Of a stretch of DNA of 64,000 nucleotides, positions 10,201-30,908 are shown in pieces (positions within the stretch are counted from its first letter, which is position 1; every line of letters begins with the position of its first letter). The position numbers and the translations under genes were made by a program. Below the pieces are notes generated by a model. It was not told where the DNA came from. It made no database searches and saw only the letters and a list, made by a program, of their open reading frames with translations. The DNA is taken from NCBI GenBank assembly GCA_003344405.1, contig NOWV01000164.1, forward strand, positions 62,001-126,000, given 5' to 3'. The stretch comes from Trichoplax sp. H2 (lineage: Eukaryota).

Positions 10201-11282
10201 AAGATATCAGTTTTGGCCTAGTTTTGTGCTATATTTCCCATCGGCAATATCTATATTTCTAACTAAATAAATTGGTTCAATTGGTGGATCTAAAAGTTTC
10301 ATGTGTAATTTCTAATAACCCATTATTCAGTATGTGTCTCTAAAGCGATATATTATTTCCATGCTATTACTGCTGAAAATGAAGACAGCCTATAGTTAAG
10401 AAGGGCCTTAAATAATTTTTAACCCTTGAATGAATTTTATTTACAACTATAGTATGTATCAGTACTAGATGCAGAAATGCCCACTTTTATAGCAATATTA
10501 TTATTTTCCGACTGTTTCCCATATAGATTAAAGGTACTTTGAACCATTACCAAGCTGTTATTTTAATTATTTATTTGTTTCGACTTCTGTATGACAGGAA
10601 ATCTGTAATAGTCGGATACGGTATCTAACATAAACTATCATTAACACCTTTTGATTCATTAGCCTTACAAAGGCTTCGTTGATTATTACTTTGATGGCCA
10701 TTTTTCATTCTTATACGTGGCATGGATTCTGTAAGTAGCTCCTACTTAACGAAGCAACTGCATCACCATTCCAATGTACTTCCTTATAGTAAACACGAAT
10801 AAATATAACCATAAATGAAAACTGATACTAAGAAATTGCAATTTATGATATGTTAGCATTACCTTGGCTTCCAAGAATTTAAAAGTTCATAGAGAAATGT
10901 AATAATAGATAATGATAGCACTTTATTACAAAATGGCATAGCCACCTGTAACCCATGGAAACAGAATACATATGGGCAAGGCCCATTGACAATGAACAAT
11001 TGCAACGGAGAGATTATTGCATTCGACTTTCGACCTTGTGCATAGAGATATTTAAAACCTTCTTTTACCTGGTTATTATTTGTACATGCTCTCAGAGCCA
11101 ACGCCTAATATTGGTTTAATTACACGTGATATTTATGGCGTTATATCACAATAGGTTAAGCCAAAGAAATTAGTAATAGCTTAATTACCATTAGTATGAT
11201 TTATCACTGATGTCATTCAAGGTGAGGTAATTGTTAATTGACATTAAAATCAGGACGAAATAAGGAAAACATTGTCGATATC

Positions 11283-14008
11283 ATGGGTAGCCCTCAAAAC
11301 GAATCTGGCCAAGATTCACACAGTGAGTCCACTATTACCCGTAAGGAACATTTGAAAAGTGATTTTAGACAAGATAATGACTTGACTGATGAAATGTTGC
11401 AAGATAGTGTTGAAGATAAATCTGACAAGGACTCAAGTCAATATCGATATGGATGTGGTCCATGCCAGCCACAATGGCTACAGGTTTTAAATCATCGATT
11501 GTGGCTAGTTATCGTTATTTGCATATATGCTACTTTTGCTGGAATGCTTATGAGTGGATTTGCCGTAGGAACGGTTACTTCGGTCGAGAAACGTTTCGGT
11601 CTGAGCAGTACAGAAACGGGAGCCATGCCATCGGCCGCTGAAGTTGCTAGTGCAGTAGTTGGAGTTACGGCTAGCTATCTTGGTGATCGAGGGCATAAAG
11701 GAAGATATTTAAGCGTGGGTGCTTTAGTTATGGCAGTAGGAGCGTTCACTTATTCGATACCCCATTTCGCCACCGGAAAATATGTTGTCGCTAGTTTTTC
11801 CAGCAATTATACCGATTTATGTCTTGTCAATTCGTCGCTATTATCAGACAGTTGTGATGCATCCTCATCAGTTTCCAGCAATTCCTATCTGCGTAATTTC
11901 TTTTTCCTGTTTCTAATCGCACAGTTATTGATGGGTGCAGGAAATAACTTGATCTGGAGTGTTGGTACTACTTATATCGATGAGAATGTTCCTCCAGTCT
12001 CTTCGCCGTTATATGTTTCATCGCTCTTTGTTATTAGTATTATAGGCCCTTCGCTGGGCTATATTATCGTCGGGATCTTTTTAGATATGTTTGTTAACTG
12101 GCCAGAAGCAGCGCCACCAGGTAGTTTGAATTGCTAATCATGCTCTTTGAGCTGAATAAATTATTAACAATTTGCATGGACTACTTTAATCAATGTTCTT
12201 TAGAGCACGATAACTAATAAATTTAAAATTTTAATCGAACCATAAAGGTTTAACACCTCAAGATGCGCGATGGATTGGTGCCTGGTGGCTGTGCTTCGTG
12301 ATCTCTGCTATTTGCTTGGTTGCTGCGTCTATTCCTCTTTTCGGATTTCCACGTAAATTACCTGGCTATGAAGAATACAAACGTATCCGACAAGAAGAAG
12401 CTAAAGCTACTAACAGAATTGATAAAGGATATGGCAACAGCGTTTCAGATTTTCTGAAAGCTAGTCGTGATTTATTCAAGAACGTTCCATTTGTCTGCTT
12501 ATTCATTTCTGGAACATTTGAGTTTATCGCAGTCAATGGCGTAACTTGGTTTTTTCCAAAGATTTTAGAGACACAGTTTCGTTTACCTTCTTCTGAAGCT
12601 AGCCTTACTGTAGGTTACATTAGTATAGTTGGAGGATGCATTGGTATGTTGCTGGTAAGTAATGAATCAATGATTGTCGTAATAGCATTGAGGAACAATA
12701 AATCTCGCTGCAACCAATCTAAAATATGATTTGATTGCCAACTCTTGTCTTAATAATTCAACTTAGGGTGGAGTACTGTTGAGAGTCCTTAAATTAAAAG
12801 GTCGTGGTGCAACCAAATTAACTTGGATTATTGGTATATGTGATTGTATAGTTTTTACTGTTTTCCTACTCGGCTGTAATAATCTTCCTTTTGCTGGAGT
12901 CACCAGTCCTTACGGCAGTAATTCGTCAGTTACACTGTAAGTAATGCACCAAGTTGCTTTCATGAGTATCTTTGTTTTCTTTTGATTTATGCTGATGTCT
13001 AGTACGTACTCCATCAATTAGAAATCACAGGGTAAACGCAGTTAATTTAACAGCATCCTGTAACACAGATTGTATGTGTAACAACGTCAAATATAATGCA
13101 ATATGTGGATCCGATGGTAAAACCTATTATTCCCCATGTCATGCCGGCTGCACCAGTAGCTATGTCGATAGCAACCGTTCTGCAACTGTATGTTATCCTC
13201 AAGTAGATTACTTTATTTCTATTTTAAGTGATAGCTGTACTCTAAAGCAAAAGATCTAATTTCAAGTGCTTTATTTAGGAATATTTCATCGTTATTATAA
13301 GCATCGATACGTTTGAGCATATTTTTAAATGGATAGATAGAGCAGGTGCCGGTTTTCTTGTTGACGTTGATATTCTATTTGTTTTAGATTTACCACAACT
13401 GCAGTTGCATTCAAAATGTCAATCGGACAAAATATAGTTATGATGCTATCCAGGGATCATGTATCTCGGAATGCCCACAATATACGCTATTTGTGATTGG
13501 TGCTTCTATTTCAATGGTCTCCATTATGGCTAAAACTGTTCCATCCATAGAAGCTATAATGAGGTAAGATAGCTGATAAGGCTACAGATTCTGAAATTGG
13601 CTTCATTGATTTCACTTATTCCAATCTATTGATTCGTTATTGATAATACGTAGGTGTGTTGGTGATGATCAAAGATCCTATGCTCTGGGGCTTGTTTCGT
13701 CCTTGGTACGCTTAGCTGGAAATATACCAGGTCCGCTTATTATTGGAGCTTTTATTGATCAATCGTGTATCTTATGGACACAAGAATGTAGCTCTACCCG
13801 TACATGTTGGTTATATGATAGCAGAAACTTGGCGAATTACCTTTATGGTTCTATGATTTTTGTTAAGATTGTATCTGTAACATTTTTTATATTGTCTTGG
13901 TGGTTCTATGATAAAGGTAACGGTAAAAGCTCGGGAGAAGAAAAGGATTTATGTGATATCCCGTTCGAAAAAGCGAATAATATTGCTACAGAAGCAACTC
14001 GTATTTAA
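11283..14008 (+). CDS. SLCO/OATP family solute carrier organic anion transporter, copy B, intact
   Basis: Exons approx. 11283-12120, 12248-12654, 12767-12937, 13022-13187, 13388-13563, 13654-14008 with GT-AG boundaries. OATP signature D-x-RW(I)GAWW, Kazal-like loop (CMCNNVKYNAICGSDGKTYYSPCHAGC) and C-terminal GNIPGPLIIGAFIDQSCILW..C...TCWLYD. Confidence 0.92.
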
Positions 14009-17000
14009 AGCAGTTCAATGCAATAGAACCTTTAAAACATAATCGGTTTCTTAAGTTGATATAGTCAAACTTGACCTGTCAAACTTAGACTGCAACCATG
14101 ACTGGAATCCTTCTATGCTACATCAAACGATAAAAACCGTTTAAGATCATCTTAGATATACACATAGCTGTGCATGTATATATATACGGTATGTAATATC
14201 CTTTGATAGGGTAGCCATATCCAATTTTCCATGTTATGACAAGTTTGTAAAATTTGATGTAGATCCATTATGCACTGGCATTATTTTGTTAGTTTGATAT
14301 CAGTGTTAAGCATTAATTGAAAATATAATAGTAGATTAGTCAATCTTGTAATATAATTGTGGGTAATGCTCGCCATTTTACCCTTTGTTAGAAGGAAACT
14401 TAACGAATTTTCTGCTCTATTACAGTATGTGACTGTGTTGTAGGCAATAGTCGTACTTGTTTCATTGATGTTGTTGAATAAAATTGACTAGCGTATTATT
14501 GGACACTTTATTTAGTAATGTTTGCTAATTGATGTGAGTAAACCTTAATGAATCAAGTCAAGGTGTTTTCATCAGCATTCACGATGGCAAAATGGCCATT
14601 TGTTGAGGACTGCTATTCGTACTATGCCTGATAATTTGATGAGCATTTTGAAGTTTTACTCTTCAATTTTAACATTCTATGAAATATCATTATCATGGAT
14701 CAGTTTACACTTGCTCGAAGTTATAGATTTAATTTAAAAATGCGCTCAAATGATTTGGAATCATGCTATCCTAGTACAGTACATGAATTGAAGCTAGTAG
14801 TTCCAGTTATCGCTTTCAAATATCGCTATAGTTGCATCATATTCAATAAAATGCAATACTGAACTAACAACATGATTTATATGTGTCTGTATGCATTTCA
14901 ATGATACGATCAAATCGGATATTGACATCAGTCATGATTACTTCTTGTCAATACAATTGTCTGTTTGGATCAAGGTTCAAGTTTGAACCAGGCAGGCATG
15001 ATACAGACCTTTCGGCAAGTTAAGACTTCTTATGCGAGCTGCAATACTATAACGTTATGAAATCTTTTCCTTGATAGAAGGATGGGATTTTTATTGGCAT
15101 AAATAACTTGCTAAGTATTAAAGAATTGGCTCATGGCGATCTCTCCATTTCTATAACTATCATAGTACTTTCTTGATTCACTAGTTTCGATAACCCTATA
15201 GCCAACTTTGCATCTACACTATTTTGTAAGTATAAAGTTGTGAATGGTCATATAATTATTTACCTTAAAAGTATTCAATTAATATTCGTCAATAGCCATG
15301 AATTTCTCCATACGGATTGATTGTGTACTTATCTAAAGAAAATGAAAATCAACTCTCATGCCTACTGTACTCTATCTCTCTTCAATTCCATTTATTCGCA
15401 GCTTCAAATGAAATAGCCAATATGAAGAAGAATTCCTTGACGACATAGTAACTGCCCACTTCCACTTTAGTATGGATCAAAGTAGATTATCCTATTGGCA
15501 ATGACTGCACCATTTTCAATGCCTATGAGTTACATCGCCATAGCATTTAGAGTCAGAAGGGAAATCACAACTATAAAAATTTTTCCCTTTCCACCTTTCA
15601 CTCTTGGCCGAAAAGAAACTTGCAAGCTTAGGCGTAAAGTTTATTAGCAGATATCACATAAACTAGGGCTTAATCCCTTATGTTTATAACATTTGAGTAA
15701 GGAATATAATCGCTTCTTGTAGATAGAGTAAAAACTTTGCTTTATAAATCTATACAGTATATAGACAGCTTGATTCTAGGCTTACTTAAAATGTCATTTA
15801 TATTGTGAATAAGCCGTTACTATGGTATCAAAGTATAAAACACGAAATTTATTACTACAATCAAATGTACTCGTGGACATAGCTTTTTACTATCTAATAA
15901 CAGTTCAATTTTCTACTTTATAGAATATGAAACTATACTTCCGTATTCAAAAAGAACACTTTCAGTTTAAAATAGGAATAAATGTGTCTTTAGAGAAACA
16001 TGTTCACCTTTAAAACCTTAGGATTCAATCTAAACTTTAGATATTATAAAAATTGACGGTGTGTTACAGAGTATTTCTTTTAGATGAATACCCGAAATGT
16101 ATCAAAAAAGACCTAAGAAAGTATTGATGAGATTTCGTTTTAATAGCATTGGATTTATTGGGTGGAATGGTATCTATCATGTAGTACTAGTAAAGAAAAC
16201 AGTATGATTTGGGTTAACAGATATTCTACGACCTATATTCTTCATGGAGACGTGGAAAATTCGATTTTCTGGATTTGTAAATTAAAATTGAAAATGTCTA
16301 AGCTGTACAGTAGACAAAGAACGTTCATAGAATATGAGAATGTGAAAGTTTTCCGAAATAATTACATGGATATAAATAAATATTTTTTAATCTAATTAGT
16401 TCTAATCATCAAATTAGACTATTGTTTACATTTTGTTATTGCATTTGAAACAATCATTTTTGCTCATGTTATACAGTATAGTATAGAAGTAATTGTCCGT
16501 TAATAAAACTTGAAAACGATCCATATTAAGTCTTATTTATATTTTCCTAATGTGAATGACTAACCTATAGAAAAATGAAGCCAGGTAAACAAAGAATGAA
16601 TTCTACAGATTTATGTGTATTATTTTCAAGATTGTTAATTAATTGATAATACTTCTCTAATTGCGTAATTTGAAGGTTTAGTACCAGTAGCGCATGCGGC
16701 GAACTGTTAGAAACTTATTGTCTAAGCAGTGACAGATAGCTCTTGAATTGTTTTCAATTTTATCCAATCGCTATTTACTACTCAGTATTATGAACTACTA
16801 CATGTTTTATTATGACTCCTAAGGTAGAAAATCGTAGAGAAATCATATCTGCGATTACAGTTGTACTTGAATCTTGTTTCATACTAATCGTCGTGAAATT
16901 GATTACTCTCTAAAGATAATCTAATTCAATCATCTAGTTTACGTGGCTTAACAGCTTTTGACCGGTGTTCAGAGAAAATCAAAATTAAGCCTTCTCCGAT

Positions 17001-18162
17001 AATTAGATACGCTAATAAAGGTCGTTTGGAAGGCGGAATTTTGTATAGATTTCAGTTGCTTCAGCATTTTAAGGAATTTTTGACTATGCTAAAGCAACTG
17101 AAATTCAATTCTACATATTCAAAAATTAAGTTGATTTGGCTGCAATAATGGCCGTCAAAAAGCCATTATGGCACTTTCCTTGGCCATTAGCGTACGCTGT
17201 ACCCGGTACTAGTTTTAAACTGAACATTTTCTACTGGGTTTGAGTATGAAAGTTTAACTCTACTTTGGGTAGCCATACTCGTACAGTATTCTTCGAACTA
17301 TACTGGAGTAACAAGTTGCCAGCCTATAGGGACTATAGTACTAGAAAGAAAGATTCGAAATGGAAATCTGCAGATCTATCATTTTTCTGGTCGTTCTATA
17401 CTACAACTTTACTGCTGAGAGCGTATACACTATACTCTCACTATACAGTAGAATTAAACCAATCAAAGCAGCTTGTGTGGATGATAATGATGGACGGTGA
17501 CACTCACTGTGTATCGTTTCAGATCTACGTTTCAGCACGGTTTCAGTTGAAGTGGCCAGTCCGTTGAAACAGTAAAACTGATGCGGGTTTTCACTGTAAT
17601 GATAGGATTTGTATGAGTTTGTGGAATGGGACTGTAGAGGGAACGTTACCGTTGACAAGATTAGTATGAGATCTACCGTTACCACTGAAGAGATACACTA
17701 TGACAAATGAAAAACGTTACGACAAAACCATACAGTACAATTTGACCACTTTACAGTATGTCGCGACTGGGCACAATGGGCAGAGAGCAAGCATTTCTCG
17801 GACGGATGTACAACGGATATGCCAGGCAACCTTCAAAAGGAATTGATTGCATCCACGTGGACCTTCACTTCGTTCGCCTTCTGCTGGTAGTTAATTGAGC
17901 TAATCGAGCTCTGCGTTGCAAGTTGAACATGGATCCAGCATGGAGCAGATGAGGATTCTACTTAATCAAGTTAGAATGGTGATACACAATGGAAGGAAAG
18001 TCGCTTGATGTATTGAAGCAAGCTCAAGGTAAAATAGTTTTCAAGTTATGCACAGTAGATGAGTAGAGGTTCGCCTTGTAAGGAAGTTCGGATGACCGAG
18101 CGAGAATCTTATGAGGTGATCGGAAAATTCTGCTTAACACGATTAAACCATGCTAGAATAGT

Positions 18163-18250
18163 AGAATGTCATGATGATAGAGGTAGATTTAGACTAGAGT
18201 CTCTGATCAATAAATATGACGAGTCTACCCTTGGCTGTCTGAAACATTCT
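18163..18250 (+). ncRNA. C/D-box snoRNA, double guide (SNORD52/snR78-type plus SNORD53-type), copy 1
   Basis: Terminal stem AGAATGT/ACATTCT, C box ATGATGA 18171-18177, D' CTGA 18203-18206 preceded by AGACTAGAGTC (antisense to LSU GACUCUAGU), C' ATGACGA, and D CTGA 18239-18242 preceded by CCCTTGGCTGT (antisense to LSU ACAGCCAAGGG). Confidence 0.9.
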
Positions 18251-18616
18251 TGACCTAATAGCTCCAAAGTCGGGTTTCGAGAGATTAGGTTGATTTGTCT
18301 AGGTAGTAGTGGCTGATCGACAATTTCAGTTTGATGCCATGTATTACGTTGAGTAAGAATGTTTGCAATAAGGGCGTTGCAATTTTATTTCTTTAATGTA
18401 GTGGCAGTGAAGATGGTCCTGGATGGGCGATACTGAAAGGAAGCGTCGGATAAATGGGAGCGAGAATTGGGTATTTTCCGGGATCAATTCTATTTCATGG
18501 ACCAACCAATGGAATTGACCCATTTTCCGATGGCGTGCTTGCCATGTTGTATGCGGTAAGTTACAACGGCAAAGAACATCGAGATGCAGCTCAAATTTGA
18601 CACTAGCTTAGTGTAG

Positions 18617-18745
18617 GATCATTGATGACACAAGATGACGATCTGAAATCATGTTACTTACTTTAGCACGATCGAAATTCTTTCGCTTGGCTAAAACGTA
18701 ACTATGATTTGTTTTGATGGACATTCGAGGCATTTGTCTGAGATC
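18617..18745 (+). ncRNA. SNORD15: C/D-box snoRNA U15 (SNORD15), copy 1
   Basis: GATC/GATC terminal stem, C box TTGATGA, D' guide AGATGACGA-T-CTGA, long internal hairpin and D guide CGAGGCATTTG-T-CTGA. Both guides are antisense to LSU CAAAUGCCUCGUCAUCU, the same architecture as vertebrate U15. Confidence 0.9.
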
Positions 18746-19468
18746 ATCTTGCTACATTGATATAGATTATAAGTAACACTGGATAATTATCATATATATA
18801 TGAAATTAGTATACACAACATTTGATATAATATATAGTTGGAAATGCACTGTACAATTTTCACGTCATTGCCGTGGTTTGCATCACCGACTGCAGTTCTT
18901 CTTTTGCTAGTCCTAGCTCTTACAGTAGAATTAACGATTATGATGTATTTTCCCTTTTAGCTTTCTTTGACGGCGTTGGAACTGAGAAAATGGAAATAAG
19001 ATGTGATCCGCCGTTACCATGCAGAGGTCTATACTCCTCATCCACCATTTGACTAGCATAATATGGCGTAAGTCTGAGATATTCTGTACACAGTGATTAC
19101 GTGTATGAAAACGCCCTTTTCAGCCATAATTTAGCCACCATTCGTGTGTAATAGTGCTGCTGCAAACATTATGAATAACATTACAGGAAGTAGGTGTATC
19201 GGTTGGAATACTTTAGCCTTGACTGCGTTAATATACACTTTTATATCGTACCAGTTATGACTATATATTGTATCATGCAGTAATTATTTAGCTATCTGTA
19301 ATACAAGGCGGTTAATACTTTTTAATGGCATGATGCCGCAGGGACTACCGTACTTAGTATTTTAACCAGGCAGTAGTGGGTATAGGACCTAGTCAGGGCG
19401 TCTGCTAAAGAAAACCTTAAAAACAAAATACGTTCTCCAAAACTATATTCCATAATAGCAACGATACA

Positions 19469-19559
19469 AAGAATGCGATGATGATTAAGGTAGATTTAGA
19501 CTAGAGTCTCTGATCTTCTACTATGACGATTCTACCCTTGGCTGTCTGAATGCATTCTT
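19469..19559 (+). ncRNA. C/D-box snoRNA, double guide (SNORD52/snR78-type plus SNORD53-type), copy 2
   Basis: Stem AAGAATGC/GCATTCTT, C box ATGATGA 19478-19484, guides identical to copy 1 (TAGACTAGAGTCT-CTGA and CCCTTGGCTGT-CTGA, D box 19546-19549). Spacer sequences have diverged. Confidence 0.9.
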
Positions 19560-20014
19560 AACGACACGGCCAGTCTGCAGTATGCACTACAGGACTGACA
19601 GTCTGTATTTGCTGCTACAGATCGCGATGTGGCTGTTCAACTTGCTATGTAGTTATGCAATTTATCCCTACAAATGTAGAATTAAAGATGAGTAACTGTA
19701 ATGGTCTCGTCATATTAGCCACCTGCTGGACTGTACTACTACAATTAGCTGAGATCAGGACAGTAACCTCCAATCTTCAAAATTGTTAGTTAATTCATAA
19801 TTTCCTTGAATGTTACATTTTGTAGGAATCTTTGTTGCATTCCTTAAAACATGAATGGAAGGCTACAAAATGATATTCCAGAACATTGTTGAATTTTGTG
19901 GAATAACGATTGCGACGGTAATGGATAGAACAGTCTTAAAACGTGTTCTCATTAAGTGAACGGTTAATTTCGATCAGATAAAACTGTGATAATTTCGTCT
20001 TTTAGCTTTGTTTG

Positions 20015-20147
20015 TGATCGTTGATGACACAAGATGACGAGTCTGAAATCATGTTACTTACTTTAGCACGATCGAAATTCTTTCGCTTGAGCTAAATCGT
20101 AGCCATGATCTGGTTTGATGTACATTCGAGGCATTTGTCTGAGATCA
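20015..20147 (+). ncRNA. SNORD15: C/D-box snoRNA U15 (SNORD15), copy 2
   Basis: TGATC/GATCA stem, C box TTGATGA, D' guide AGATGACGAG-T-CTGA and D guide CGAGGCATTTG-T-CTGA (D box 20139-20142). Highly similar to 18617-18745. Confidence 0.92.
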
Positions 20148-23100
20148 TATGTTGACGTTAATTAATTAAGGATTGATCAGAAGTTTTGTACAGTCTGTAA
20201 AGAGACGACTAAAGATTCTCAATTAATTACCGTAATTGTTGTTATGATGATGTTTACAGTTTACAACTTTTGTCGCTTTGTATTAGGTTTATGGATATTA
20301 ACTGAAACCATATCTTCCGTAGCAACAATGGTGATTTTCTGTCCACCACGTCAGGGTCTGTTCTTCCGATTGGCCACTGAATTGTTTTGCAAACATATAA
20401 TGAACGAAACAGTCTGTAATATAACAATGCGATTATACCCTTGTAAATAAATTTATAGTAGGCAGAAAAACTTGGCTTCTGCTCTAAATTGTAGAAGTCT
20501 AGATCATCAGCTGTTGTGCTTTAGTTAAGGACTGATTGCTGGCTATCGTAGCTATTAACGTATAAATATATTGGGTCTATTTTGACTTTGTTATTCTAAT
20601 TTAATTTTAATTGCCTTACTGCTGTTTCAATGCATCTTGCTAAACCACGAAGAAATATAATATCAACCATGTTGTATCGGTACGATAACTTCTGTTAAAA
20701 TTCTTAGCAAAGATTTTTTATCGATGATTGGAGTTAATTTTTATCTCGTGAAAATACCATATGCAAATACTATTTCTTGCCGACGTGTTTTATCTAACTC
20801 ATTACTTAATAAATTCAGTAATGAAAGTCTCCCGAAATGATTTACTTATTGATATGACGGTTAAGATATTTTCTTAAAATTTACGAATATTTATAGACAT
20901 CCACTGCTTAATAGCAATTTTCTTAGTAATAATGGAGACTTTTAGACCTCACTATTTAGTTCTCCAATGAATGAATTACTCCTCAATCTAACATTTTCAA
21001 CGCTTCTGTACATTATCGCTCACAGTTTGGATGCTATGCTTTCGTTGTCACCATATTTTTATTTTAATACATGACATATCATGCCAATACGTAATTTAAT
21101 TCTCTATTTTAACTCGCATTGATCGTAGAGCTAGTGGAAGTGCTGCTTTATTACTCTAGATAATACAATACGCGTATTTCGTTTCCCTAGATGCAAACAA
21201 CTGTAACATTACTGTATAATTCCAGGGTAAATCTTGATGCCAAAAGATACGGTTAAGATTGTCTTGTGATACTAGTACTGAACCTCCTCGATCCAATTAT
21301 TTTTTACAGATTCATTTCCAAAATTTATATCAGCCCAGCTGAATGATCAAATTGATTAACTTTTGATACCGAGCATATTTTAAAATTGCGAAGTATTTGC
21401 CACAATAATTTCCTGAATTATTGCATCTAACTTTATTACACACTGAAATATTAGAAATTACTTAATTCAAGTACGGTATTCATACTCATTTATAGATTTC
21501 ACTAATATTACAATTATCGACTTTCATCGAGCGTGATTGCAGAGTACAGTATGTAGACATTCCGTATTTAAAGCAGGATCAAAAAATTTATTGACTAATG
21601 CATTAAAATAAGACATGTTGAATAAATGTGAGAACTGCCGTTGATAGGTAGTAATGGAAATTATATGACAATGTGAAGCAGTAATGAAGTGACGATAGAT
21701 TATATTAATGCCTGCTTAATGATTAACTATGATTGGTTAATAGTTTGTTATATTGGAATATTGTTACGTAACCTTTATACTTTAGGCTTACATGAGTTAG
21801 TATGAGAGACTCAAAGATTTATATTGGAAAACCGCGCAGAGCCAATTTTGTATGAAATTTGTAAAGATAGATGCTAGTTAGAGATATCTTAAGGCAGTCG
21901 CCTGCCACATATTTTACTGCTTCTGTTGCATTTAGATCTACTCGCGAACCTTTTAATTAATACATGCAATAAGTAAAACTATTACCCGAATCTATTAATT
22001 AAAGTTAATTTTGGAATAACAACAGTAGGTCTAATAGTAGGGATTATTACAGTGATCAATCTACGAAATCGAATCTATGTATCTGATTTAAAAATTACTT
22101 CAGCGATATTCATAGTGATAAAATAGAGACAGCTGCTATTCCAGTTCATTGTGAACCAATACAGACAGCGATAGATATCACTTGCTGTTGCTAAGAGCTC
22201 TAGATATAGAGCAGCTGAATATTACGACATAGCACGACGATAGCAGTTGTTGGTGAGTTCTTGTAGTCATAGATTAGGGAATAAATTTTAAATGTTAAAA
22301 AGTAACATTTTTTATAAATTTATTTTTAATAAAGAGATAAAACTGTAGATTTATAATTCATGTTGTAATCTTCTTTTAAATACAAATATCTTTTAATAGG
22401 ATAATACAAAAAAGTATTGATGGTGCACCTTATTAAATCTAGGGGGTATTAATTTCCCTAGTACGATAGATAATACACCAGGTTTAGTTAATCGATCTAC
22501 AGTTCATGAAATATACTGTAAGTTATTGAATGAAGAGAGACTTAGCTAGGTTTGATTTCTCAGTAGTTCAAAATTCCAATAAATAAAGAAAGTATAAGTT
22601 GTTGTTTGAAGAAATGAAAAATAAACAGTGATTAACAAAATACTTATAAAAATTACCTACAACTAAGGCATTTATCTTCAGTTCCTACATGCTAGCTAAT
22701 TTGCCAACTAAGTACCAAAACTTTAATTACTCATTTTTAAATGAAATTATCATTAGATTAATTGGTAAATTTACACGGATGTGTACCTTCTCTAATTGGA
22801 TTAGCCATAATTTATTTTTATTTTATTTTACAATTGCATGGAACAGCTCTTTGATGAGTTTAAAATTTAACTTACCAAAATTAATTTTCCAATTTAATGC
22901 TACATCTAGCCTGATTTGATTAAGCAACGATATTTGCTTTGCGGCATCTTTGGCGTTTAGCTTCAATTCTGATCTTAGCGATTGTAATTCGTCTAATCCG
23001 CTTCCCATTATGGCGTTGCAAAATATATAATAGTCGACGTCGTCAGTCCTATTGAGCATTTCCCATAATGCAATATTTCATTCACTTTTTAGTTGCAAGG

Positions 23101-25510: not shown

Positions 25511-27559
25511 CTACAATGGTTCAGTACCTAAAATATCGTCTAATTTCCAATCTTCTATTGTCGCAGGTGGAAAAGAATAAATACAGCTTGAGCACTTAAT
25601 ATATCTTTCTACAATCTGATTTGGACAAACGGTAACTCCATGGCATTCGGGACACTTAATATAATAATCACACTTAGCATCCTGCCAGCCGGAAATTTGA
25701 TTTTCGACTACATTCAGCAACGCACTTCTAAATTTGACATGAGGTTGATCTTCAAGGATTGATTTTAATGCTTTTGCTTTAAACCAATTGTGCCCATAGT
25801 CATGGTTATTATCGGATTGGTAATAGTACTGCAGACCAATGTAAGAATTATTCTTTACAATAATTATTGTATAATTTCTATGTCTTGGTAAAAATTTGGC
25901 ATAGTTTTGGTATATGACAACTTTCCATAGTAGCTGAATAGATGATAACAGCTTGTAAAAAATGCAATCAGTAATATAAGGTACTTTTTCTTGGCTGCAA
26001 CTCAAATATAGCCAGCTAGAATAAGACAATTCGCTAGAAGAATTTTTTGATTCTGACTTGTAGGATGACAGTAAATTAGGAATAAAGTAGTAATCATCAT
26101 GTTTAGCCGAAATTTCATCTGAAATTCCTCGAAACTGATAAATAATATTGCTTAGCTCCATGGCATGCAATACTTCGTTAATATCCGCGTTGCTCAGTTG
26201 ATATTCGCTTGCTGCATATTTAATTGAAGCTTTGGATACAATGCCAGCCTTACTTGCTAATTCATAATAGCTTCTATGCTCACCAGAATTCGGAAGAATT
26301 GCATTTTTATCCCCTAATGATAGAATTGCATCGAGGAATCTTATGAAAAAACTAAAATTGACTATTAGCGCGTCATGATAGTTCTTATTTGTAGGACAAA
26401 ATAGCAGATCACCTATGCTGTGTAAGTATTTGAATAAATTCCCAAATTTCATAACTCCAGAATTGTGAATATCAAACATTTCCGCCAAAGTCGCTTTGTG
26501 TTTAATAGGTTTGATTTGCACAGTGCCCATTTTTTTATCATCAATCTTTGACATACTGCGTAATACGGCTGATCCGATATCAATCAAACTAGTATTTGCG
26601 TTTGCATTTATCACAATGGAAGGTATTACTTGAATAAAACCTGCAAGAAGGGTGCATAACTCCTTTAAATTATGGTCATTGTGAAGCGGTAGCGAACCGT
26701 TGTCATCATTAGCACTTGGAGACCATTCCATTACTAATTTTGGACAAAACAAATTTGCTCTATAAGAAGATAATCTTCGGTCTAATATCTTTATAAATTT
26801 ATTCCGTCTTTCAAATTGCTCAATTTTATCTAGTTTATCGCCATGGTAGGTAGGAATTATTAGAATTAATGGTAAAGCAAATTTTTCACTTCGTCCGTCG
26901 AAATTAGCAGGAAAGCGCTTCAATTTATAAGTGGGTTCAATAACATTGATTAGCCAGTCCTGTATAGATGTAATATATCTACTACCAGGATCGTTTAGAT
27001 TGCTTTCAACCGCTTCACTTAGGTCGATATTGACATCAAATGTTATTATATAGATGTTAGAGTGGAACTTGAAAGGCTGATAATAAATCGCGTCATGGAA
27101 ATTCCATATTTTAGCATAAAAGCTAGTACCGTGTTCATTGGATCTAGTTTGTTGCAATAATTGACTTGAGTCTACCACCGTACTGCCATTCGAGTACCTG
27201 TTGCCGTTTGTTTTATTAGATCTATACGAAATATTTTTAACCGTTAATGGAGCACTGCTGGCATAGTGTGGTTGTAGATTTGCAGCATCATCTGTAGTTT
27301 TACTTTGTCTTATGAGCTTATTTACATCAACAATGGCGGGATCAGGATTGGCATTACTAGTATGGGCTCGCCCAGTTAGTAATTTGAATATATAAGATTT
27401 GCCTTGACATTTCGATCCAATTAACATTATGTTAACAAAACGGATACAACAGTCATTGTTCTCAAAATCATTTCCATGGGATGGCATAGTTATTTCTGGT
27501 AATTGGCGCAACCGTAGAAAGAATTTAAAAATAATAATTAGAAAAATTGAATTGCTCAT
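25511..27559 (-). CDS. Roc-COR (Roco-family) P-loop GTPase-like region with C-terminal CxxC...CxxC; probable exon 27495-25528
   Basis: 682-aa ORF: NIMLIGSKCQGKS (G1), KIWNFHD (degenerate G3 position), IYIITFD...IQDWL, PLILIIPTYHGDKL (G4-like), COR-like FKYLHSIGDLLF and YYFIPNLL, then CPECH...CSSC. Confidence 0.75.
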   Translation of the reverse strand: MSNSIFLIIIFKFFLRLRQLPEITMPSHGNDFENNDCCIRFVNIMLIGSKCQGKSYIFKLLTGRAHTSNANPDPAIVDVNKLIRQSKTTDDAANLQPHYASSAPLTVKNISYRSNKTNGNRYSNGSTVVDSSQLLQQTRSNEHGTSFYAKIWNFHDAIYYQPFKFHSNIYIITFDVNIDLSEAVESNLNDPGSRYITSIQDWLINVIEPTYKLKRFPANFDGRSEKFALPLILIIPTYHGDKLDKIEQFERRNKFIKILDRRLSSYRANLFCPKLVMEWSPSANDDNGSLPLHNDHNLKELCTLLAGFIQVIPSIVINANANTSLIDIGSAVLRSMSKIDDKKMGTVQIKPIKHKATLAEMFDIHNSGVMKFGNLFKYLHSIGDLLFCPTNKNYHDALIVNFSFFIRFLDAILSLGDKNAILPNSGEHRSYYELASKAGIVSKASIKYAASEYQLSNADINEVLHAMELSNIIYQFRGISDEISAKHDDYYFIPNLLSSYKSESKNSSSELSYSSWLYLSCSQEKVPYITDCIFYKLLSSIQLLWKVVIYQNYAKFLPRHRNYTIIIVKNNSYIGLQYYYQSDNNHDYGHNWFKAKALKSILEDQPHVKFRSALLNVVENQISGWQDAKCDYYIKCPECHGVTVCPNQIVERYIKCSSCIYSFPPATIEDWKLDDILGTEPL

Positions 27560-28955
27560 GATCTAAAATATCTTAGAGAACGTTCCAGATGTGATTATGA
27601 TAGCAATCTGATAAATTAGTGAATGGAATTTAAGAAGAATTAGCAATTACCAATTTAAAACATCTGACAATGGTGCTACAGTTTAATATAGTAGACATCG
27701 ATACAAAACTGCTTTAGAATATTATGCTATAATTGCTTGCTAATAAATTTATACCGTACAAAGCAGCAGTAGGAGTAAATTGCAGTGCCATTGATGTAAT
27801 ATTTGGGCACATAATTTGATAATTGAAACTGAGAAAATTACAGGACGATCTTCGGTGCTAAATAAAGGAATTACAACAGATTCTATCAAATGTACCGTAT
27901 TAATTCCATAATTGGAGTGTACACTACTGATACTTTAAAATTAAAACGTTTACTAGACAAATGGTTTATAAATGCAAACTACTAAATGTTCAACTCTACG
28001 ATCACTTCAAGCTTACCAGAAGGCTATAAGACTAATGCATAGACGATTCGATATTGTGGAAGTTATTTAAGCACATTCTTGCATCAGTATAATGGGATCT
28101 TGTATCATTTCTATTACTTATTTATTAACCAAGTTTTTACACGAAGTCTCTGAATCATATTACGGTAGTGAAAAACATCAAGGCATAAATTCTTATATTA
28201 ACTCTAACTCGAATTGAACATAACCTTCTTTGCCATTAAAATCTTACCGATTTCAATTTCCTTCTGTATGGAGCTATTCTTATTCCTCTCTACCAAATCT
28301 AGCCAAATACAAATTTTACAATATTAGCAGATCAATCGGGAAATTTTTTTAGATATCAATAGATTCCTCTTAGCAATTAAGCATAATAAGAATTTACTTA
28401 ACTTTTTAATTGGAAGTTATGCTAATAAATAGATCATATGATAGTAAATTTAGTTTGATCTTTCGGCTTAATTTGCAAATTAGCTTATCGTAATTATAAT
28501 CCTGAAATCGATCGTATAGTAATAGATGAATGACTAAAGGCATCTCTATCTTCAATGATCTATCTACGATTTAACAGAACCTGAGACGTGATAGACCTTG
28601 GTGTTGTTGAATGAATTAGATATTAAGTAATAAAATAAAATTTTTCCAAGTGATTCTAGTGTTGCTTTAATACCTTGAAGGAAATCTATCGCACCTTTAT
28701 AATATCAATTGAAAGTATACTAATATTACTTCTATGTTTCATCTAATTAAGTATGGTGATACTAATTTTACTTAATTTAGTGGTATAGTTGCATTTCAGA
28801 AGCATTCTGACATGGTATCAATCAAATGCTTACTCAGGTGTATTTTATACCACCGGGGTAAATTTTTCATGTAAATTAACTGACTTTACCAACTACCATT
28901 AACCATTTAGTCTAGCAATAATCTGTATTTCTGTGATCAATTAAAGACGATTACA

Positions 28956-30908
28956 TTAAACAGTAATCTTTATTCCAGTACCTGGTGATGAAAGTATTAA
29001 CTCGGGTGGACTTTTGTGATAATTTGTGCCAATTTTAGTCCTGAAGAAATGTTTCAATGTGCTGTAAACTTTTTCTTCTAACTTTTTTAAATCTCCATTA
29101 TTTTTTGTATTTGGAGTATCATTTTCTTTTATTGCTTTCTCATAATTCCATAATGCACGGACATAGTCCGTGGGTAGCTCATGGATTTCATTGATAAGAA
29201 TATAAATTTTAGCTTTATTGGCGGGTGTTTTTGTTGCATTCAAATACTTTAAGTAGAATTGTTTAGCTTCACGATAACGCTTTAGTAGTTCTAAGATTGA
29301 CCCAAAATCTTTAAGTAGACCAAAATTAATGATACTTTCATGCATAATCAGGTTTTCGATTATTTCTTTAGCTTTATAATAATAATTATAAGCATTTTGA
29401 AAATCCTTGAGTAAAAGGTAAATTTTTCCAATTTCATAGTTTGACTTAAAATGGCCTAAACTTATTTTATATTTTTGTTTCTGCCGAATATTCAGTGACT
29501 TGATATGCAGCCTTAATGCTTCATTAAAGTTTTGGCAATGCTTATTTAGGTTTCCTTCTTGGTAGTACCTTTCAATATTGACCTTTTCATCATCTAAGAA
29601 TTTTTTTCTAATTGCTGTAGATGCCCCTAGTTGTTGTCTAGCTGCCTCAAAATTGCCCTGTAACATATATGCTTCTGCAATGCTATCGAAAATTTCTGTA
29701 ATTAGCCTATTTTTATCACTGAAATCACCATGTAAAATTTCTTTTGCTTTATTATAATAATTTAATGCGATATCCATTTCATTCCTGGTAAAATGGAATT
29801 TTCCAATCCCGAGCAAAGATTTACTCTGTTCGATCGCATGCTTATAGCTAGATTTTTCTCGAGAGAAACTTTTTCTAGCTTCATCATAGTAATATCGAGA
29901 GGAATCATATGTACATTTCTTAAAACATATTTCTCCCAAAATGTTGTTTAACTTCACCTTCGATATTTTGCTGCTTGTATTTGTTATATTCTTGAAATAC
30001 AACAATTTTTTATAGTAGTCTTTAGCGTTATCTAAACGATCAGATTCAAAATAAACTTTAGATAAGTATTCAATTGAAGCAACTCTACGCCAGTTGTTGG
30101 AATGAAACAATTTACGTTTCAAATGTTCGGACTTTGAATAATATTTTATTGCTTGCACGTAATCACTCCATAAATAAAAGATAGTACCAATCGTGTCGTT
30201 TAGCAACGTCGTTTTTTCAGTATTACTGGTATTTATATGTTTCTTTTCAGAATACTCTAGCGTTTCTATAACGGCATTTAATGCAGCTTTGTATTGCTTT
30301 TGTCCATCACCGAGTAGCCTGTAACACTCAGAACTTAATAAAGGTCTATCCTTACTATCCCAATAGCTTTTTAGTTGAACTTTTAACGAATTTATGAGAG
30401 CGCTTTCGGCTTCATCCAGTTTATGCTGCCTAATGTATAAGTCAGCCATATCGTTCAGGATTTTACCCTTCAATAGACTTGAGTTTGCTTGATCTAGGGA
30501 TTTCATTGCCTTTTCGAAATTGAACAAACTTTCTTCATACTGTTCTTGCTCCATGAAAATTTTGCCCAGTATATGGTGAGATTCAGCAATTTGTTCGATT
30601 ATGTCTCTTTCTGTAGCTTTTAATAGAGCTCTATTACAATATTGTATAGCTCCTTCAAAATTGAGCTGCTGATATTTAGACTTTGCCAGGCCCATATATA
30701 TCTTCCATTTGTTGAGGATAAATTCGTTATCATCGCCCTCATTGGAAGACTTATTAATAATTTTGTACGCCTCTGTATATTTAGAGAAAGCTTCAGTATA
30801 CTTCCCTTGATCGAAAAAAGTATTTCCTTCCAGAAGGAAAGATTTCCAGTCTCTATCATGCGGTGTGTAAGTATTCTCTACAACGGATTTATTTTGCAAG
30901 AATTCCAT
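28956..30908 (-). CDS. Tetratricopeptide-repeat array (single ~1.9 kb exon); probably the N-terminus of a TPR-Roco protein
   Basis: 650-aa ORF with repeated TPR helices (GNTFFDQGKYTEAFSKYTEA, LGKIFMEQEQYEESLFNFEKA, IGKIYLLLKDFQNAYNYYYKA). Splice donor CCAG|GTACTG at 28982/28981, just before the ORF stop. Confidence 0.85.
   Translation of the reverse strand: MEFLQNKSVVENTYTPHDRDWKSFLLEGNTFFDQGKYTEAFSKYTEAYKIINKSSNEGDDNEFILNKWKIYMGLAKSKYQQLNFEGAIQYCNRALLKATERDIIEQIAESHHILGKIFMEQEQYEESLFNFEKAMKSLDQANSSLLKGKILNDMADLYIRQHKLDEAESALINSLKVQLKSYWDSKDRPLLSSECYRLLGDGQKQYKAALNAVIETLEYSEKKHINTSNTEKTTLLNDTIGTIFYLWSDYVQAIKYYSKSEHLKRKLFHSNNWRRVASIEYLSKVYFESDRLDNAKDYYKKLLYFKNITNTSSKISKVKLNNILGEICFKKCTYDSSRYYYDEARKSFSREKSSYKHAIEQSKSLLGIGKFHFTRNEMDIALNYYNKAKEILHGDFSDKNRLITEIFDSIAEAYMLQGNFEAARQQLGASTAIRKKFLDDEKVNIERYYQEGNLNKHCQNFNEALRLHIKSLNIRQKQKYKISLGHFKSNYEIGKIYLLLKDFQNAYNYYYKAKEIIENLIMHESIINFGLLKDFGSILELLKRYREAKQFYLKYLNATKTPANKAKIYILINEIHELPTDYVRALWNYEKAIKENDTPNTKNNGDLKKLEEKVYSTLKHFFRTKIGTNYHKSPPELILSSPGTGIKITV

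What the first reader, a model, noticed from the sequence alone, without database searches (positions are those of the whole stretch)
17380..20451. Hidden non-coding snoRNA host gene with four intronic C/D snoRNAs aimed at the large-subunit rRNA core
Seen: the ORF track shows nothing credible here, but four C/D-box RNAs with terminal stems and perfect antisense guides to LSU rRNA lie inside GT-AG introns between short exons, one of which (18402-18555) is closed in all three frames. The unit ends at AATAAA 20446. Known: GAS5/UHG-type non-coding hosts exist in vertebrates and Drosophila, and vertebrate U15 is hosted in protein-coding RPS3 introns. Inference: this is a dedicated lncRNA snoRNA host in an early-branching animal that protein-centred annotation would miss.
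Basis: partly seen in the sequence, partly recalled or inferred. Interest (0 to 1): 0.8.

Follow-up and report, generated by a model that had tools for sequence, protein, structure and literature searches.

The report
Non-coding snoRNA host gene in Trichoplax
A spliced transcript with no protein-coding capacity in the placozoan Trichoplax carries one ribosomal-RNA methylation guide (C/D snoRNA) in each of its four introns; this is an ordinary kind of gene in animals and fungi that automatic annotation would probably miss here.

Summary
Four box C/D snoRNAs lie on the + strand at 18162-18251, 18617-18746, 19469-19559 and 20016-20147. They are two copies each of a SNORD52/53-type (plant SnoR37-type) dual guide and of a SNORD15-type dual guide, in the order A-B-A-B. 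All four fall below Rfam's gathering scores. Their guides are the longest matches to eukaryotic LSU rRNA. They point at sites spaced 0, +7, +84 and +140 nt apart, the same spacing as the mapped Nm sites of human and Arabidopsis.

RNA contigs from two studies show GT-AG splicing around each snoRNA. The introns are 18029-18401, 18556-18960, 19068-19825 and 19918-20286. Two contigs run on to 20579, past the AATAAA at 20446.

The 812-nt spliced RNA has 49 stops, and its longest ATG ORF is 46 aa. The two duplicated units are alike only at the snoRNAs.

The organism is Trichoplax adhaerens. Verdict: a real UHG/GAS5-type host gene, a new member of a known kind. Mature small RNAs, the methylations, the transcription start and the poly(A) tail are not shown.

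The parts
17863..18028 (+). Exon 1 (minimum extent). The first base covered by the spliced RNA contig is 17863; the donor GT is at 18029.
   Evidence: X6 record 21 covers 17863-18026 and joins to 18400 (cut +2). 23 letters of that record upstream of 17863 were not placed, so the true 5' end is not mapped. The X13 loose end of 14 letters at 18400 equals window 18013-18026.
18029..18401 (+). Intron 1, GT..AG, 373 nt, holds snoRNA A1.
   Evidence: table 5 (X6 contig; X13 loose end).
18162..18251 (+). snoRNA A1, a dual-guide C/D RNA of SNORD52/53 (SnoR37, Z157) type. C box 18171-18177; D' 18203-18206; C' 18217-18222; D 18239-18242. Guides 18192-18201 and 18228-18238. Terminal stem 18163-18169 with 18244-18250.
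   Evidence: RF00333, 46.4 bits, E 1e-7; 10 and 11 bp to LSU rRNA; terminal stem in the MFE fold.
18402..18555 (+). Exon 2, 154 nt, stops in all three frames.
   Evidence: X13 record 10, X6 record 22.
18556..18960 (+). Intron 2, GT..AG, 405 nt, holds snoRNA B1.
   Evidence: table 5 (X6 and X13 contigs).
18617..18746 (+). snoRNA B1, SNORD15 (U15) type. C box 18623-18628; D' 18643-18646; D 18738-18741. Guides 18633-18641 (9 bp; one base shorter than in B2) and 18726-18736 (11 bp).
   Evidence: RF00067, 31.6 bits, E 4e-4.
18961..19067 (+). Exon 3, 107 nt.
   Evidence: X13 record 10.
19068..19825 (+). Intron 3, GT..AG, 758 nt, holds snoRNA A2.
   Evidence: table 5 (X6 and X13 contigs).
19469..19559 (+). 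snoRNA A2, paralogue of A1. C box 19478-19484; D' 19510-19513; C' 19524-19529; D 19546-19549. Guides 19499-19508 and 19535-19545. Terminal stem 19470-19476 with 19552-19558.
   Evidence: RF00333, 53.9 bits, E 7e-10.
19826..19917 (+). Exon 4, 92 nt.
   Evidence: X13 record 10.
19918..20286 (+). Intron 4, GT..AG, 369 nt, holds snoRNA B2.
   Evidence: table 5 (X13 contig only).
20016..20147 (+). snoRNA B2, SNORD15 (U15) type. C box 20022-20027; D' 20043-20046; D 20139-20142. Guides 20032-20041 (10 bp) and 20127-20137 (11 bp).
   Evidence: RF00067, 38.4 bits, E 8.5e-6.
20287..20579 (+). Exon 5 (last). AATAAA at 20446-20451. Contig ends at 20476 (X6) and at 20579 (X13, X4).
   Evidence: No poly(A) loose end was reported, so the 3' end and the tail are not shown.

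Best explanation
This is a dedicated non-protein-coding snoRNA host gene of Trichoplax adhaerens, of the UHG/GAS5/SNHG kind. A + strand transcript of at least five short exons (from 17863 or upstream to 20476 or 20579) is spliced at four GT-AG introns. Each intron carries one box C/D snoRNA.

Inferred mechanism: after splicing, each intron is debranched and trimmed by exonucleases down to the snoRNP core assembled on the C/D kink-turn and terminal stem. This releases four guide RNAs. The spliced exon RNA is a by-product.

The A RNAs (two copies) carry two guides. They should direct 2'-O-methylation of the LSU rRNA C and U that correspond to human 28S C3848 (SNORD53) and U3904 (SNORD52), and to Arabidopsis 25S C2366 and U2422 (SnoR37).

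The B RNAs (two copies) are U15-type. They should direct methylation of the A and G that correspond to human A3764 and G3771, and to Arabidopsis A2282 and G2289. In copy B1 a one-base deletion next to D' moves the predicted site to the neighbouring U.

The locus arose by an old tandem duplication of a two-intron unit (A-B to A-B-A-B). Only the snoRNAs have been kept alike since.

Shown: the sequences, boxes, stems, guide complementarity, splice joints and lack of an ORF. Inferred: intron-to-snoRNA processing, snoRNP assembly and the methylations.
For: 1. Family and anatomy. The best Rfam matches are RF00333 (53.9 and 46.4 bits, E 7e-10 and 1e-7) and RF00067 (38.4 and 31.6 bits, E 8.5e-6 and 4e-4). 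The alignments are full-length, and the conserved blocks are the boxes and guides. In the whole-window E-value scan, A1, A2 and B2 (three of these four RNAs) were the only 3 hits at E<=0.001.

2. Targets. A pattern of three guide elements in antisense order, with 32 specified bases, hit at least 101 metagenome contigs. Of the 80 loci with fetched DNA I tested 4, and 4 of 4 were LSU_rRNA_eukarya with the pattern antisense to the rRNA. On one such rRNA (L003) the longest perfect complements of each snoRNA are exactly the stretches next to D or D' (11, 10 and 9 bp; every other match is 9 bp or less and scattered). The fifth-nucleotide rule gives A, G (+7), U (+8, B1 only), C (+84) and U (+140).

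3. Match to mapped sites. The same spacing links human 28S A3764, G3771, C3848 and U3904 (passages of PMC5389715 and PMC6461891) and Arabidopsis 25S A2282, G2289, C2366 and U2422, assigned to U15 and SnoR37 (Table 1 and text of PMC8053127).

4. Splicing. Joints at 18028/18402, 18555/18961 and 19067/19826 are seen in contigs of X6 (a library on record as RNA) and X13, which come from two studies. For the first of these, X13 gives only a 14-letter loose end. The joint 19917/20287 is seen in X13 only. All are GT..AG on the + strand.

5. No coding capacity. The 812-nt spliced RNA has 18, 20 and 11 stops in its three frames, and its longest ATG ORF is 46 aa. Its longest stop-free run is 62 codons; 224 of 500 shuffles do as well. 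Of the 6 longest stop-free peptides, 0 have a Pfam hit at E<=0.1.

6. Selection on the snoRNAs only. blastn of unit 1 against unit 2 aligns only 18163-18251 with 19470-19559 (86.7%) and 18604-18747 with 20003-20148 (91.1%); the next best match is 16 nt. A1 and A2 do not differ in boxes or guide duplexes. Their terminal stems differ by a compensatory pair, AGAATGT/ACATTCT against AGAATGC/GCATTCT.

7. Variants among runs. Between 17863 and 20579 there are 23 substitution places and 4 indel places, and 0 of the 27 fall in the 443 nt of snoRNA. That is 16% of the span, so chance is about 0.008 (my arithmetic, tables 3 and 4). 6 of the 23 substitutions fall in exons, which make up 30% of the span.
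Against: - None of the four RNAs reaches its Rfam gathering score.
- No small-RNA data were seen. The runs are assembled contigs, which cannot show mature ~90 and ~130 nt species, their ends or their level.
- The rRNA used for target mapping is from metagenome eukaryotes, not from Trichoplax.
- X1 and X4 show no joints. X4 and X6 also hold contigs that cross exon-intron borders (for example 17994-18184, 18425-18614 and 18526-18989), so unspliced RNA or DNA is present too.
- Joint 4 rests on one contig.
- The 5' end is not mapped, and no poly(A) tail was seen.
- The snoRNAs lie 139 to 266 nt upstream of the 3' splice sites. That is farther than the roughly 70-80 nt I recall as optimal for vertebrate intronic C/D snoRNAs.
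- The D' duplex of B1 is only 9 bp.
Confidence: 0.88

Rival explanations
1. The host transcript is really a protein-coding or micropeptide gene, and the snoRNAs merely sit in its introns, as in ribosomal-protein hosts.
For: ATG ORFs of 46 and 40 aa exist in the spliced RNA. The 5' end is unmapped, so upstream exons cannot be excluded.
Against: There are stops in all frames of every stretch. The longest stop-free run (62 codons) is no longer than in shuffles (mean 63). No Pfam match was found. Exon 2 is closed in all three frames. Exon variants are as frequent as intron variants.
Confidence: 0.04
2. The snoRNAs are made from their own promoters or from unspliced read-through RNA. The spliced transcript is incidental and not their precursor.
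For: The distances to the 3' splice sites (139-266 nt) are not those recalled as optimal for splicing-coupled C/D assembly. Unspliced contigs exist.
Against: There is exactly one snoRNA in each of four consecutive introns, all on the transcript's strand. No other function is visible for the exons. This layout is the known signature of intron-processed snoRNAs (PMC2780460 passages).
Confidence: 0.05
3. One copy of each pair (for example B1, with its shortened D' guide) is a decaying duplicate, so the locus yields only two working snoRNAs.
For: B1 has a one-base deletion at the D' guide, leaving 9 bp. A1 and B1 score lower than A2 and B2 in Rfam.
Against: All four keep their boxes, D guides and terminal stems. 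The A stems differ by a compensatory pair. No variant among the runs falls in any copy. The flanks have diverged beyond recognition while the copies stay 87-91% alike.
Confidence: 0.12

Closest known systems
Vertebrate and Drosophila non-coding snoRNA host genes (UHG/SNHG1, GAS5, Drosophila Uhg genes)
   Same: A multi-exon spliced RNA without a meaningful ORF, one C/D snoRNA per intron on the same strand, and exons that appear to drift while the snoRNAs are kept.
   Different: There is no sequence similarity. The snoRNA content differs. A 5'TOP start, polyadenylation and instability are not shown here. The snoRNAs lie 139-266 nt from the 3' splice site. The host lists for the named genes are recalled, apart from the GAS5-U76 remark in PMC2655684.
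UHG-like snoRNA clusters I-V of Neurospora crassa (PMC2780460)
   Same: Non-coding hosts with only short ORFs (159-267 bp there) and intron-encoded C/D snoRNAs, confirmed by RT-PCR (passages).
   Different: Fungal rather than animal, with a different snoRNA content. Alternative splicing is documented there; here only one isoform was seen.
SNORD15 / plant U15 (RF00067)
   Same: The same two guide elements and box order, a long (~130 nt) body, and predicted targets 7 nt apart, which equal human A3764 and G3771 and Arabidopsis A2282 and G2289.
   Different: It scores 38.4 and 31.6 bits against a gathering score of 75. The internal region is unalignable to the model (posterior probabilities are low). 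It is hosted by a non-coding gene, whereas human SNORD15A/B lie in RPS3 introns (recalled). The B1 D' guide is shifted by one base.
Arabidopsis SnoR37 / Rfam snoZ157-R69-R10 (RF00333) / Tetrahymena TtnuCD15 / human SNORD52 plus SNORD53
   Same: Both guides sit in one RNA, as in SnoR37 (C2366 and U2422). The guide blocks are identical to the RF00333 and TtnuCD15 consensus. The targets equal human C3848 (SNORD53) and U3904 (SNORD52).
   Different: In human the two guides lie on two separate snoRNAs (table in PMC6461891). The scores of 53.9 and 46.4 bits are just under the gathering score of 55.

Membership tests
Box C/D snoRNA (general) | C box RUGAUGA near the 5' end and D box CUGA near the 3' end, brought together by a terminal stem | tested here: met
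   One search gives the box coordinates: ATGATGA in A1 and A2, TTGATGA in B1 and B2, and a terminal CTGA in all four; a terminal stem appears in the MFE fold of 4 of 4; compensatory change in the A stems.
Box C/D snoRNA (general) | A guide of about 10 nt or more next to D or D', complementary to rRNA, with the fifth paired nucleotide at a known Nm site | tested here: met
   11, 10 and 9 bp. The offsets 0, +7, +84 and +140 equal those of the human and Arabidopsis Nm sites. The rRNA used is not Trichoplax's own.
Box C/D snoRNA (general) | A stable small RNA bound by fibrillarin, Nop56, Nop58 and Snu13 | not testable with these tools
   Only assembled contigs were available.
SNORD15 (RF00067) | Score at or above Rfam's gathering threshold (75 bits) | tested here: not met
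   38.4 and 31.6 bits. This is a curated score cut-off, not a biological feature. The RNAs are called U15-type on guide identity.
SNORD15 (RF00067) | D and D' guides for the two LSU sites 7 nt apart (human A3764 and G3771) | tested here: met
   Fully met for B2; for B1 the D guide only.
snoZ157/R69/R10 (RF00333; SNORD52/53, SnoR37 type) | Score at or above Rfam's gathering threshold (55 bits) | tested here: not met
   53.9 and 46.4 bits.
snoZ157/R69/R10 (RF00333; SNORD52/53, SnoR37 type) | Guides for the LSU C and U sites 56 nt apart (Arabidopsis C2366 and U2422; human C3848 and U3904) | tested here: met
UHG/GAS5-type non-coding snoRNA host gene | A spliced transcript with the snoRNAs in its introns, one per intron | tested here: met
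   table 5 and record 10 of X13. The snoRNA coordinates are, and the distances.
UHG/GAS5-type non-coding snoRNA host gene | No conserved or long ORF in the spliced RNA | tested here: met
   Conservation in other species was not testable.
UHG/GAS5-type non-coding snoRNA host gene | Exons poorly conserved relative to the snoRNAs | tested here: met
   the paralogous units are alike only at the snoRNAs; 6 of 23 substitutions fall in exons and 0 of 23 in snoRNAs. No between-species comparison was made.
UHG/GAS5-type non-coding snoRNA host gene | 5'-terminal oligopyrimidine (TOP) start | tested here: inconclusive
   The first base seen in RNA is C17863, followed by a pyrimidine-rich stretch (CTTCACTTCGTTCGCCTTCT). 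It is interrupted by purines, and the start is not mapped.
UHG/GAS5-type non-coding snoRNA host gene | Polyadenylated Pol II transcript | tested here: inconclusive
   AATAAA at 20446-20451, with contig ends at 20476 and 20579. No poly(A) loose end was reported.

The most novel reading that the evidence does not exclude
This may be the first documented UHG/GAS5-type non-coding snoRNA host in a non-bilaterian animal. Its 5' end has an E-box (CACGTG, 17854-17859) 4 nt before the first transcribed base seen, followed by a pyrimidine-rich leader. That would mean Myc/TOP-type growth control of snoRNA hosts predates Bilateria. In addition, the one-base deletion in B1 may have retargeted its D' guide from the conserved G to the adjacent U, creating a placozoan-specific Nm site in LSU domain IV.
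Probability: 0.15. Interest if true: 0.5.

Novelty: new member of a known kind. Interest (0 to 1): 0.33.

Why it matters
The only systematic ncRNA survey of Trichoplax that my searches found lists five C/D snoRNAs (U3, U18, U36, U76, U106). It lists no U15 or SNORD52/53-type RNA, and it could not say whether the host genes are conserved (PMC2655684 passages). A later paper calls snoRNAs of basal metazoans poorly characterised (PMC3412847 passage).

This locus adds four snoRNA genes of two ancient families and a clear non-coding host to that list. [quoted passage not shown] It also shows that Trichoplax keeps the two-guide form of the SNORD52/53 RNA, which is split into two genes in human.

Practically, all four RNAs fall under Rfam's gathering scores. 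Pipelines that rely on those cut-offs, or on ORFs, would probably leave the locus blank.

Tried and rejected
- Rfam at gathering thresholds found nothing in the window. The matches appear only in E-value mode.
- No whole genome is held for this window. I therefore could not look for other copies of the snoRNAs, for Trichoplax's own rRNA, or for a U15 in its RPS3 gene.
- Earlier-findings look-ups by place, sequence and words returned nothing.
- I looked for extra pairing between the perfectly conserved 48-nt inner part of B (18642-18689 = 20042-20089) and rRNA near the target, as proposed for Arabidopsis U15. On the metagenome rRNA L003, only scattered 8-9 bp matches far from the target were found. 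This was not informative, because the rRNA is not Trichoplax's.
- The short similarity 18954-18969 with 19999-20014 (16 nt, E 0.04) is not colinear with the duplication. I take it as chance.
- Parts without RNA-contig cover upstream of 17863 in X6 and X13 prove nothing about the start.
- X1 has even depth of about 100 over all 30 bins and no joints. It behaves like DNA, and I did not use it as evidence of expression.
- The weak microRNA-family hits at 17043-17109 (E 0.8 and 5) were not pursued.
- The CACGTG count in the window (4 observed, 4.2 expected) shows no enrichment. Only the position of the copy at 17854 is suggestive.
- blastn of the rRNA target region against E. coli aligned only 111 of 701 nt (73%). 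A global alignment left the C site unaligned.

Full report
**What is in the sequence**

The stretch 17380-20451 has no credible ORF. The two stop-to-stop frames of 94-105 codons have no Pfam match. Four box C/D RNAs lie on the + strand:
- A1, 18162-18251
- B1, 18617-18746
- A2, 19469-19559
- B2, 20016-20147

Each has a 5' C box, an internal CTGA (D'), a 3' CTGA (D) and a terminal stem.

They are not four different RNAs. They are two families in two copies each, in the order A-B-A-B, with start-to-start spacings of 1307 and about 1400 nt.

Rfam at gathering thresholds reports nothing in the whole window. In E-value mode over 16500-21500 the best matches are as follows.
- snoZ157/R69/R10 (RF00333) for A2 and A1: 53.9 and 46.4 bits, gathering score 55, E 7e-10 and 1e-7.
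- SNORD15 (RF00067) for B2 and B1: 38.4 and 31.6 bits, gathering score 75, E 8.5e-6 and 4e-4.

The alignments are full-length, and their confident blocks are the boxes and guide elements. Tetrahymena TtnuCD15 also matches A (38.1 bits, gathering score 75). Over the whole 64-kb window at E<=0.001, three of these four RNAs are the only hits.

**Targets**

I wrote three guide elements, in the order they would have on the antisense strand of one target, as a gapped pattern with 32 specified bases. I tested 4 of the 80 loci that came with DNA. All 4 are LSU_rRNA_eukarya, and the pattern is antisense to the rRNA.

On one of them (L003) the longest perfect complements of each snoRNA to the rRNA are exactly the stretches next to D or D':
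- A, D guide: 11 bp
- A, D' guide: 10 bp
- B, D guide: 11 bp
- B2, D' guide: 10 bp
- B1, D' guide: 9 bp

All other matches are 9 bp or shorter and scattered.

The fifth-nucleotide rule predicts methylation of the following rRNA sites, with offsets counted from the first:

| Guide | Predicted site | Offset (nt) |
|---|---|---|
| B, D | A | 0 |
| B2, D' | G | +7 |
| B1, D' | U | +8 |
| A, D | C | +84 |
| A, D' | U | +140 |

The same spacings link experimentally supported Nm sites in two other organisms:
- Human 28S: A3764 and G3771 (both discussed for SNORD15A; one passage of PMC5389715), C3848 (SNORD53) and U3904 (SNORD52) (table in PMC6461891).
- Arabidopsis 25S: A2282 and G2289 (D and D' guides of U15), C2366 and U2422 (both SnoR37) (Table 1 and text of PMC8053127).

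So B is a U15-type RNA. A is the two-guide SnoR37-type RNA, whose two guides sit on separate genes in human.

The target stretch aligns with E. coli 23S at 73% over 111 nt. In a global alignment the sites fall near positions 1935-1943 and 2075 of that record's 2900-nt 23S annotation; the C site is unaligned. From recall this is domain IV (helices 70-71) up to the start of domain V. 'Core' is therefore a fair word. Trichoplax's own rRNA was not available.

**The host transcript**

Contigs of four public runs were laid on 16500-21200.

X6 is a library on record as random-primed RNA, and X13 comes from another study. Both hold spliced forms, with these introns:

| Intron | Coordinates | Evidence |
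|---|---|---|
| 1 | 18029-18401 | X6 contig; X13 has a 14-letter loose end identical to 18013-18026 |
| 2 | 18556-18960 | X6 and X13 contigs |
| 3 | 19068-19825 | X6 and X13 contigs |
| 4 | 19918-20286 | X13 contig only |

All four read GT..AG on the + strand. One 662-nt X13 contig joins 18402-18555, 18961-19067, 19826-19917 and 20287-20579.

The acceptor at 20260 is not; 20287 is used.

One X6 contig ends at 20476, but contigs of X13 and X4 both end at 20579. No poly(A) loose end was reported.

The spliced X6 contig begins at 17863, with 23 unplaced letters beyond. The start is therefore unmapped, and 17380 has no support of its own.

X1 has flat depth of about 100 in all bins and no joints, and it looks like DNA. 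X4 and X6 also hold contigs across exon-intron borders, so unspliced molecules are present as well.

**Coding potential**

The 812-nt spliced RNA, counted from 17863, has 18, 20 and 11 stops in its three frames. Its longest ATG ORF is 46 aa. Its longest stop-free run is 62 codons, against a shuffle mean of 63; 224 of 500 shuffles do as well. Exon 2 has stops in all three frames. None of the six longest stop-free peptides has a Pfam hit at E<=0.1.

**Signs of selection**

blastn of the first two-intron unit against the second aligns only the snoRNAs: 86.7% over 90 nt, and 91.1% over 146 nt. The next best match is 16 nt. So the duplication is old, and only the snoRNAs were kept.

A1 and A2 are identical in boxes and guide duplexes. 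Their terminal stems differ by a compensatory pair.

B1 and B2 share a perfectly identical 48-nt inner segment. They differ by a one-base deletion next to D' in B1, which shifts its predicted target by one nucleotide.

Among the variant places seen between runs from 17863 to 20579, there are 23 substitutions and 4 indels. None lies in the 443 nt of snoRNA; by my arithmetic chance is about 0.008. Six substitutions lie in exons, about the share expected from their length. Collapsed repeats in the contigs could hide some variants in B.

**Mechanism**

The shown parts are the anatomy, the splice joints, the lack of an ORF and the guide-target match. Three steps are inferred from the known biology of intronic C/D snoRNAs:
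- The snoRNAs are released from the spliced-out introns by debranching and exonucleolytic trimming.
- They assemble with fibrillarin and its partner proteins.
- They methylate the predicted sites.

The snoRNAs lie 139-266 nt from the 3' splice sites. That is farther than the optimum I recall for vertebrates, and it is a small point against strict splicing coupling.

**Comparison and novelty**

A neighbouring ORF is 99% identical to Trichoplax adhaerens TRIADDRAFT_974. The gene therefore lies in a placozoan, between a tandem pair of SLCO/OATP genes and Roc-COR/TPR ORFs.

Non-coding hosts with one snoRNA per intron are well known in vertebrates and Drosophila. They are also described as UHG-like clusters in Neurospora (PMC2780460 passages). 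The kind is therefore known and wide.

For Trichoplax, the 2009 survey lists only U3, U18, U36, U76 and U106 among C/D RNAs. It says that host genes could not be compared with those of human (PMC2655684 passages). A 2012 paper calls basal-metazoan snoRNAs poorly characterised (PMC3412847 passage). The sponge lncRNA paper PMC4540969 never uses the word 'host', and its three mentions of snoRNA are general.

My three full-text searches found no description of a non-coding snoRNA host, a U15 or a SNORD52/53-type RNA in a placozoan. The library lacks most subscription journals. I could not see the external supplement of the 2009 paper or the deposited annotation.

I rate the locus a new member of a known kind: real, tidy and useful for annotation, but not surprising.

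**A lead not established**

CACGTG lies at 17854-17859, 4 nt before the first RNA base seen. It is followed by a pyrimidine-rich leader. The window holds 4 such hexamers against 4.2 expected, so only the position is suggestive. A paper whose title says that snoRNAs are Myc targets in Drosophila was seen only in a search listing (PMC4430873).

Noticed in passing
window 17854-17859: An E-box hexamer (CACGTG) lies 4 nt upstream of the first base covered by the spliced RNA contig (17863). It is followed by a pyrimidine-rich stretch. There are 4 such hexamers in the window against 4.2 expected.
   Followed up: partly
window 4757-7299 and 11238-14008 (+): Two tandem paralogous SLCO/OATP transporter genes, each seen as three ORF pieces with PF03137 matches. 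The second is 99% identical to Trichoplax adhaerens TRIADDRAFT_974, and 83% to a Trichoplax sp. H2 SLCO4A1-like protein.
   Followed up: partly
window 17043-17164: A hairpin-forming inverted repeat with weak microRNA-family hits (E 0.8 and 5). Next to it is a stretch where several contigs of X1, X4 and X13 end with unlike loose ends and raised depth. It looks like the edge of a dispersed repeat.
   Followed up: no
window 25511-27562 and 28956-30935 (-): Two long uninterrupted ORFs of 683 and 659 aa. One has a weak COR-A match (below the cut-off), and the other has many TPR repeats. They may be parts of a Roc-COR/TPR type gene.
   Followed up: no
window 18642-18689 = 20042-20089: The 48-nt inner segment of the two U15-type copies is 100% identical, while the following 50 nt differ at about 8 places. 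It folds into a long internal hairpin in both copies. The Arabidopsis work proposes extra target pairing by the top loop of U15.
   Followed up: partly
window 20499-20826: Low-depth X6 RNA contigs continue downstream of the host gene's last seen end. They may be read-through or another transcript.
   Followed up: no
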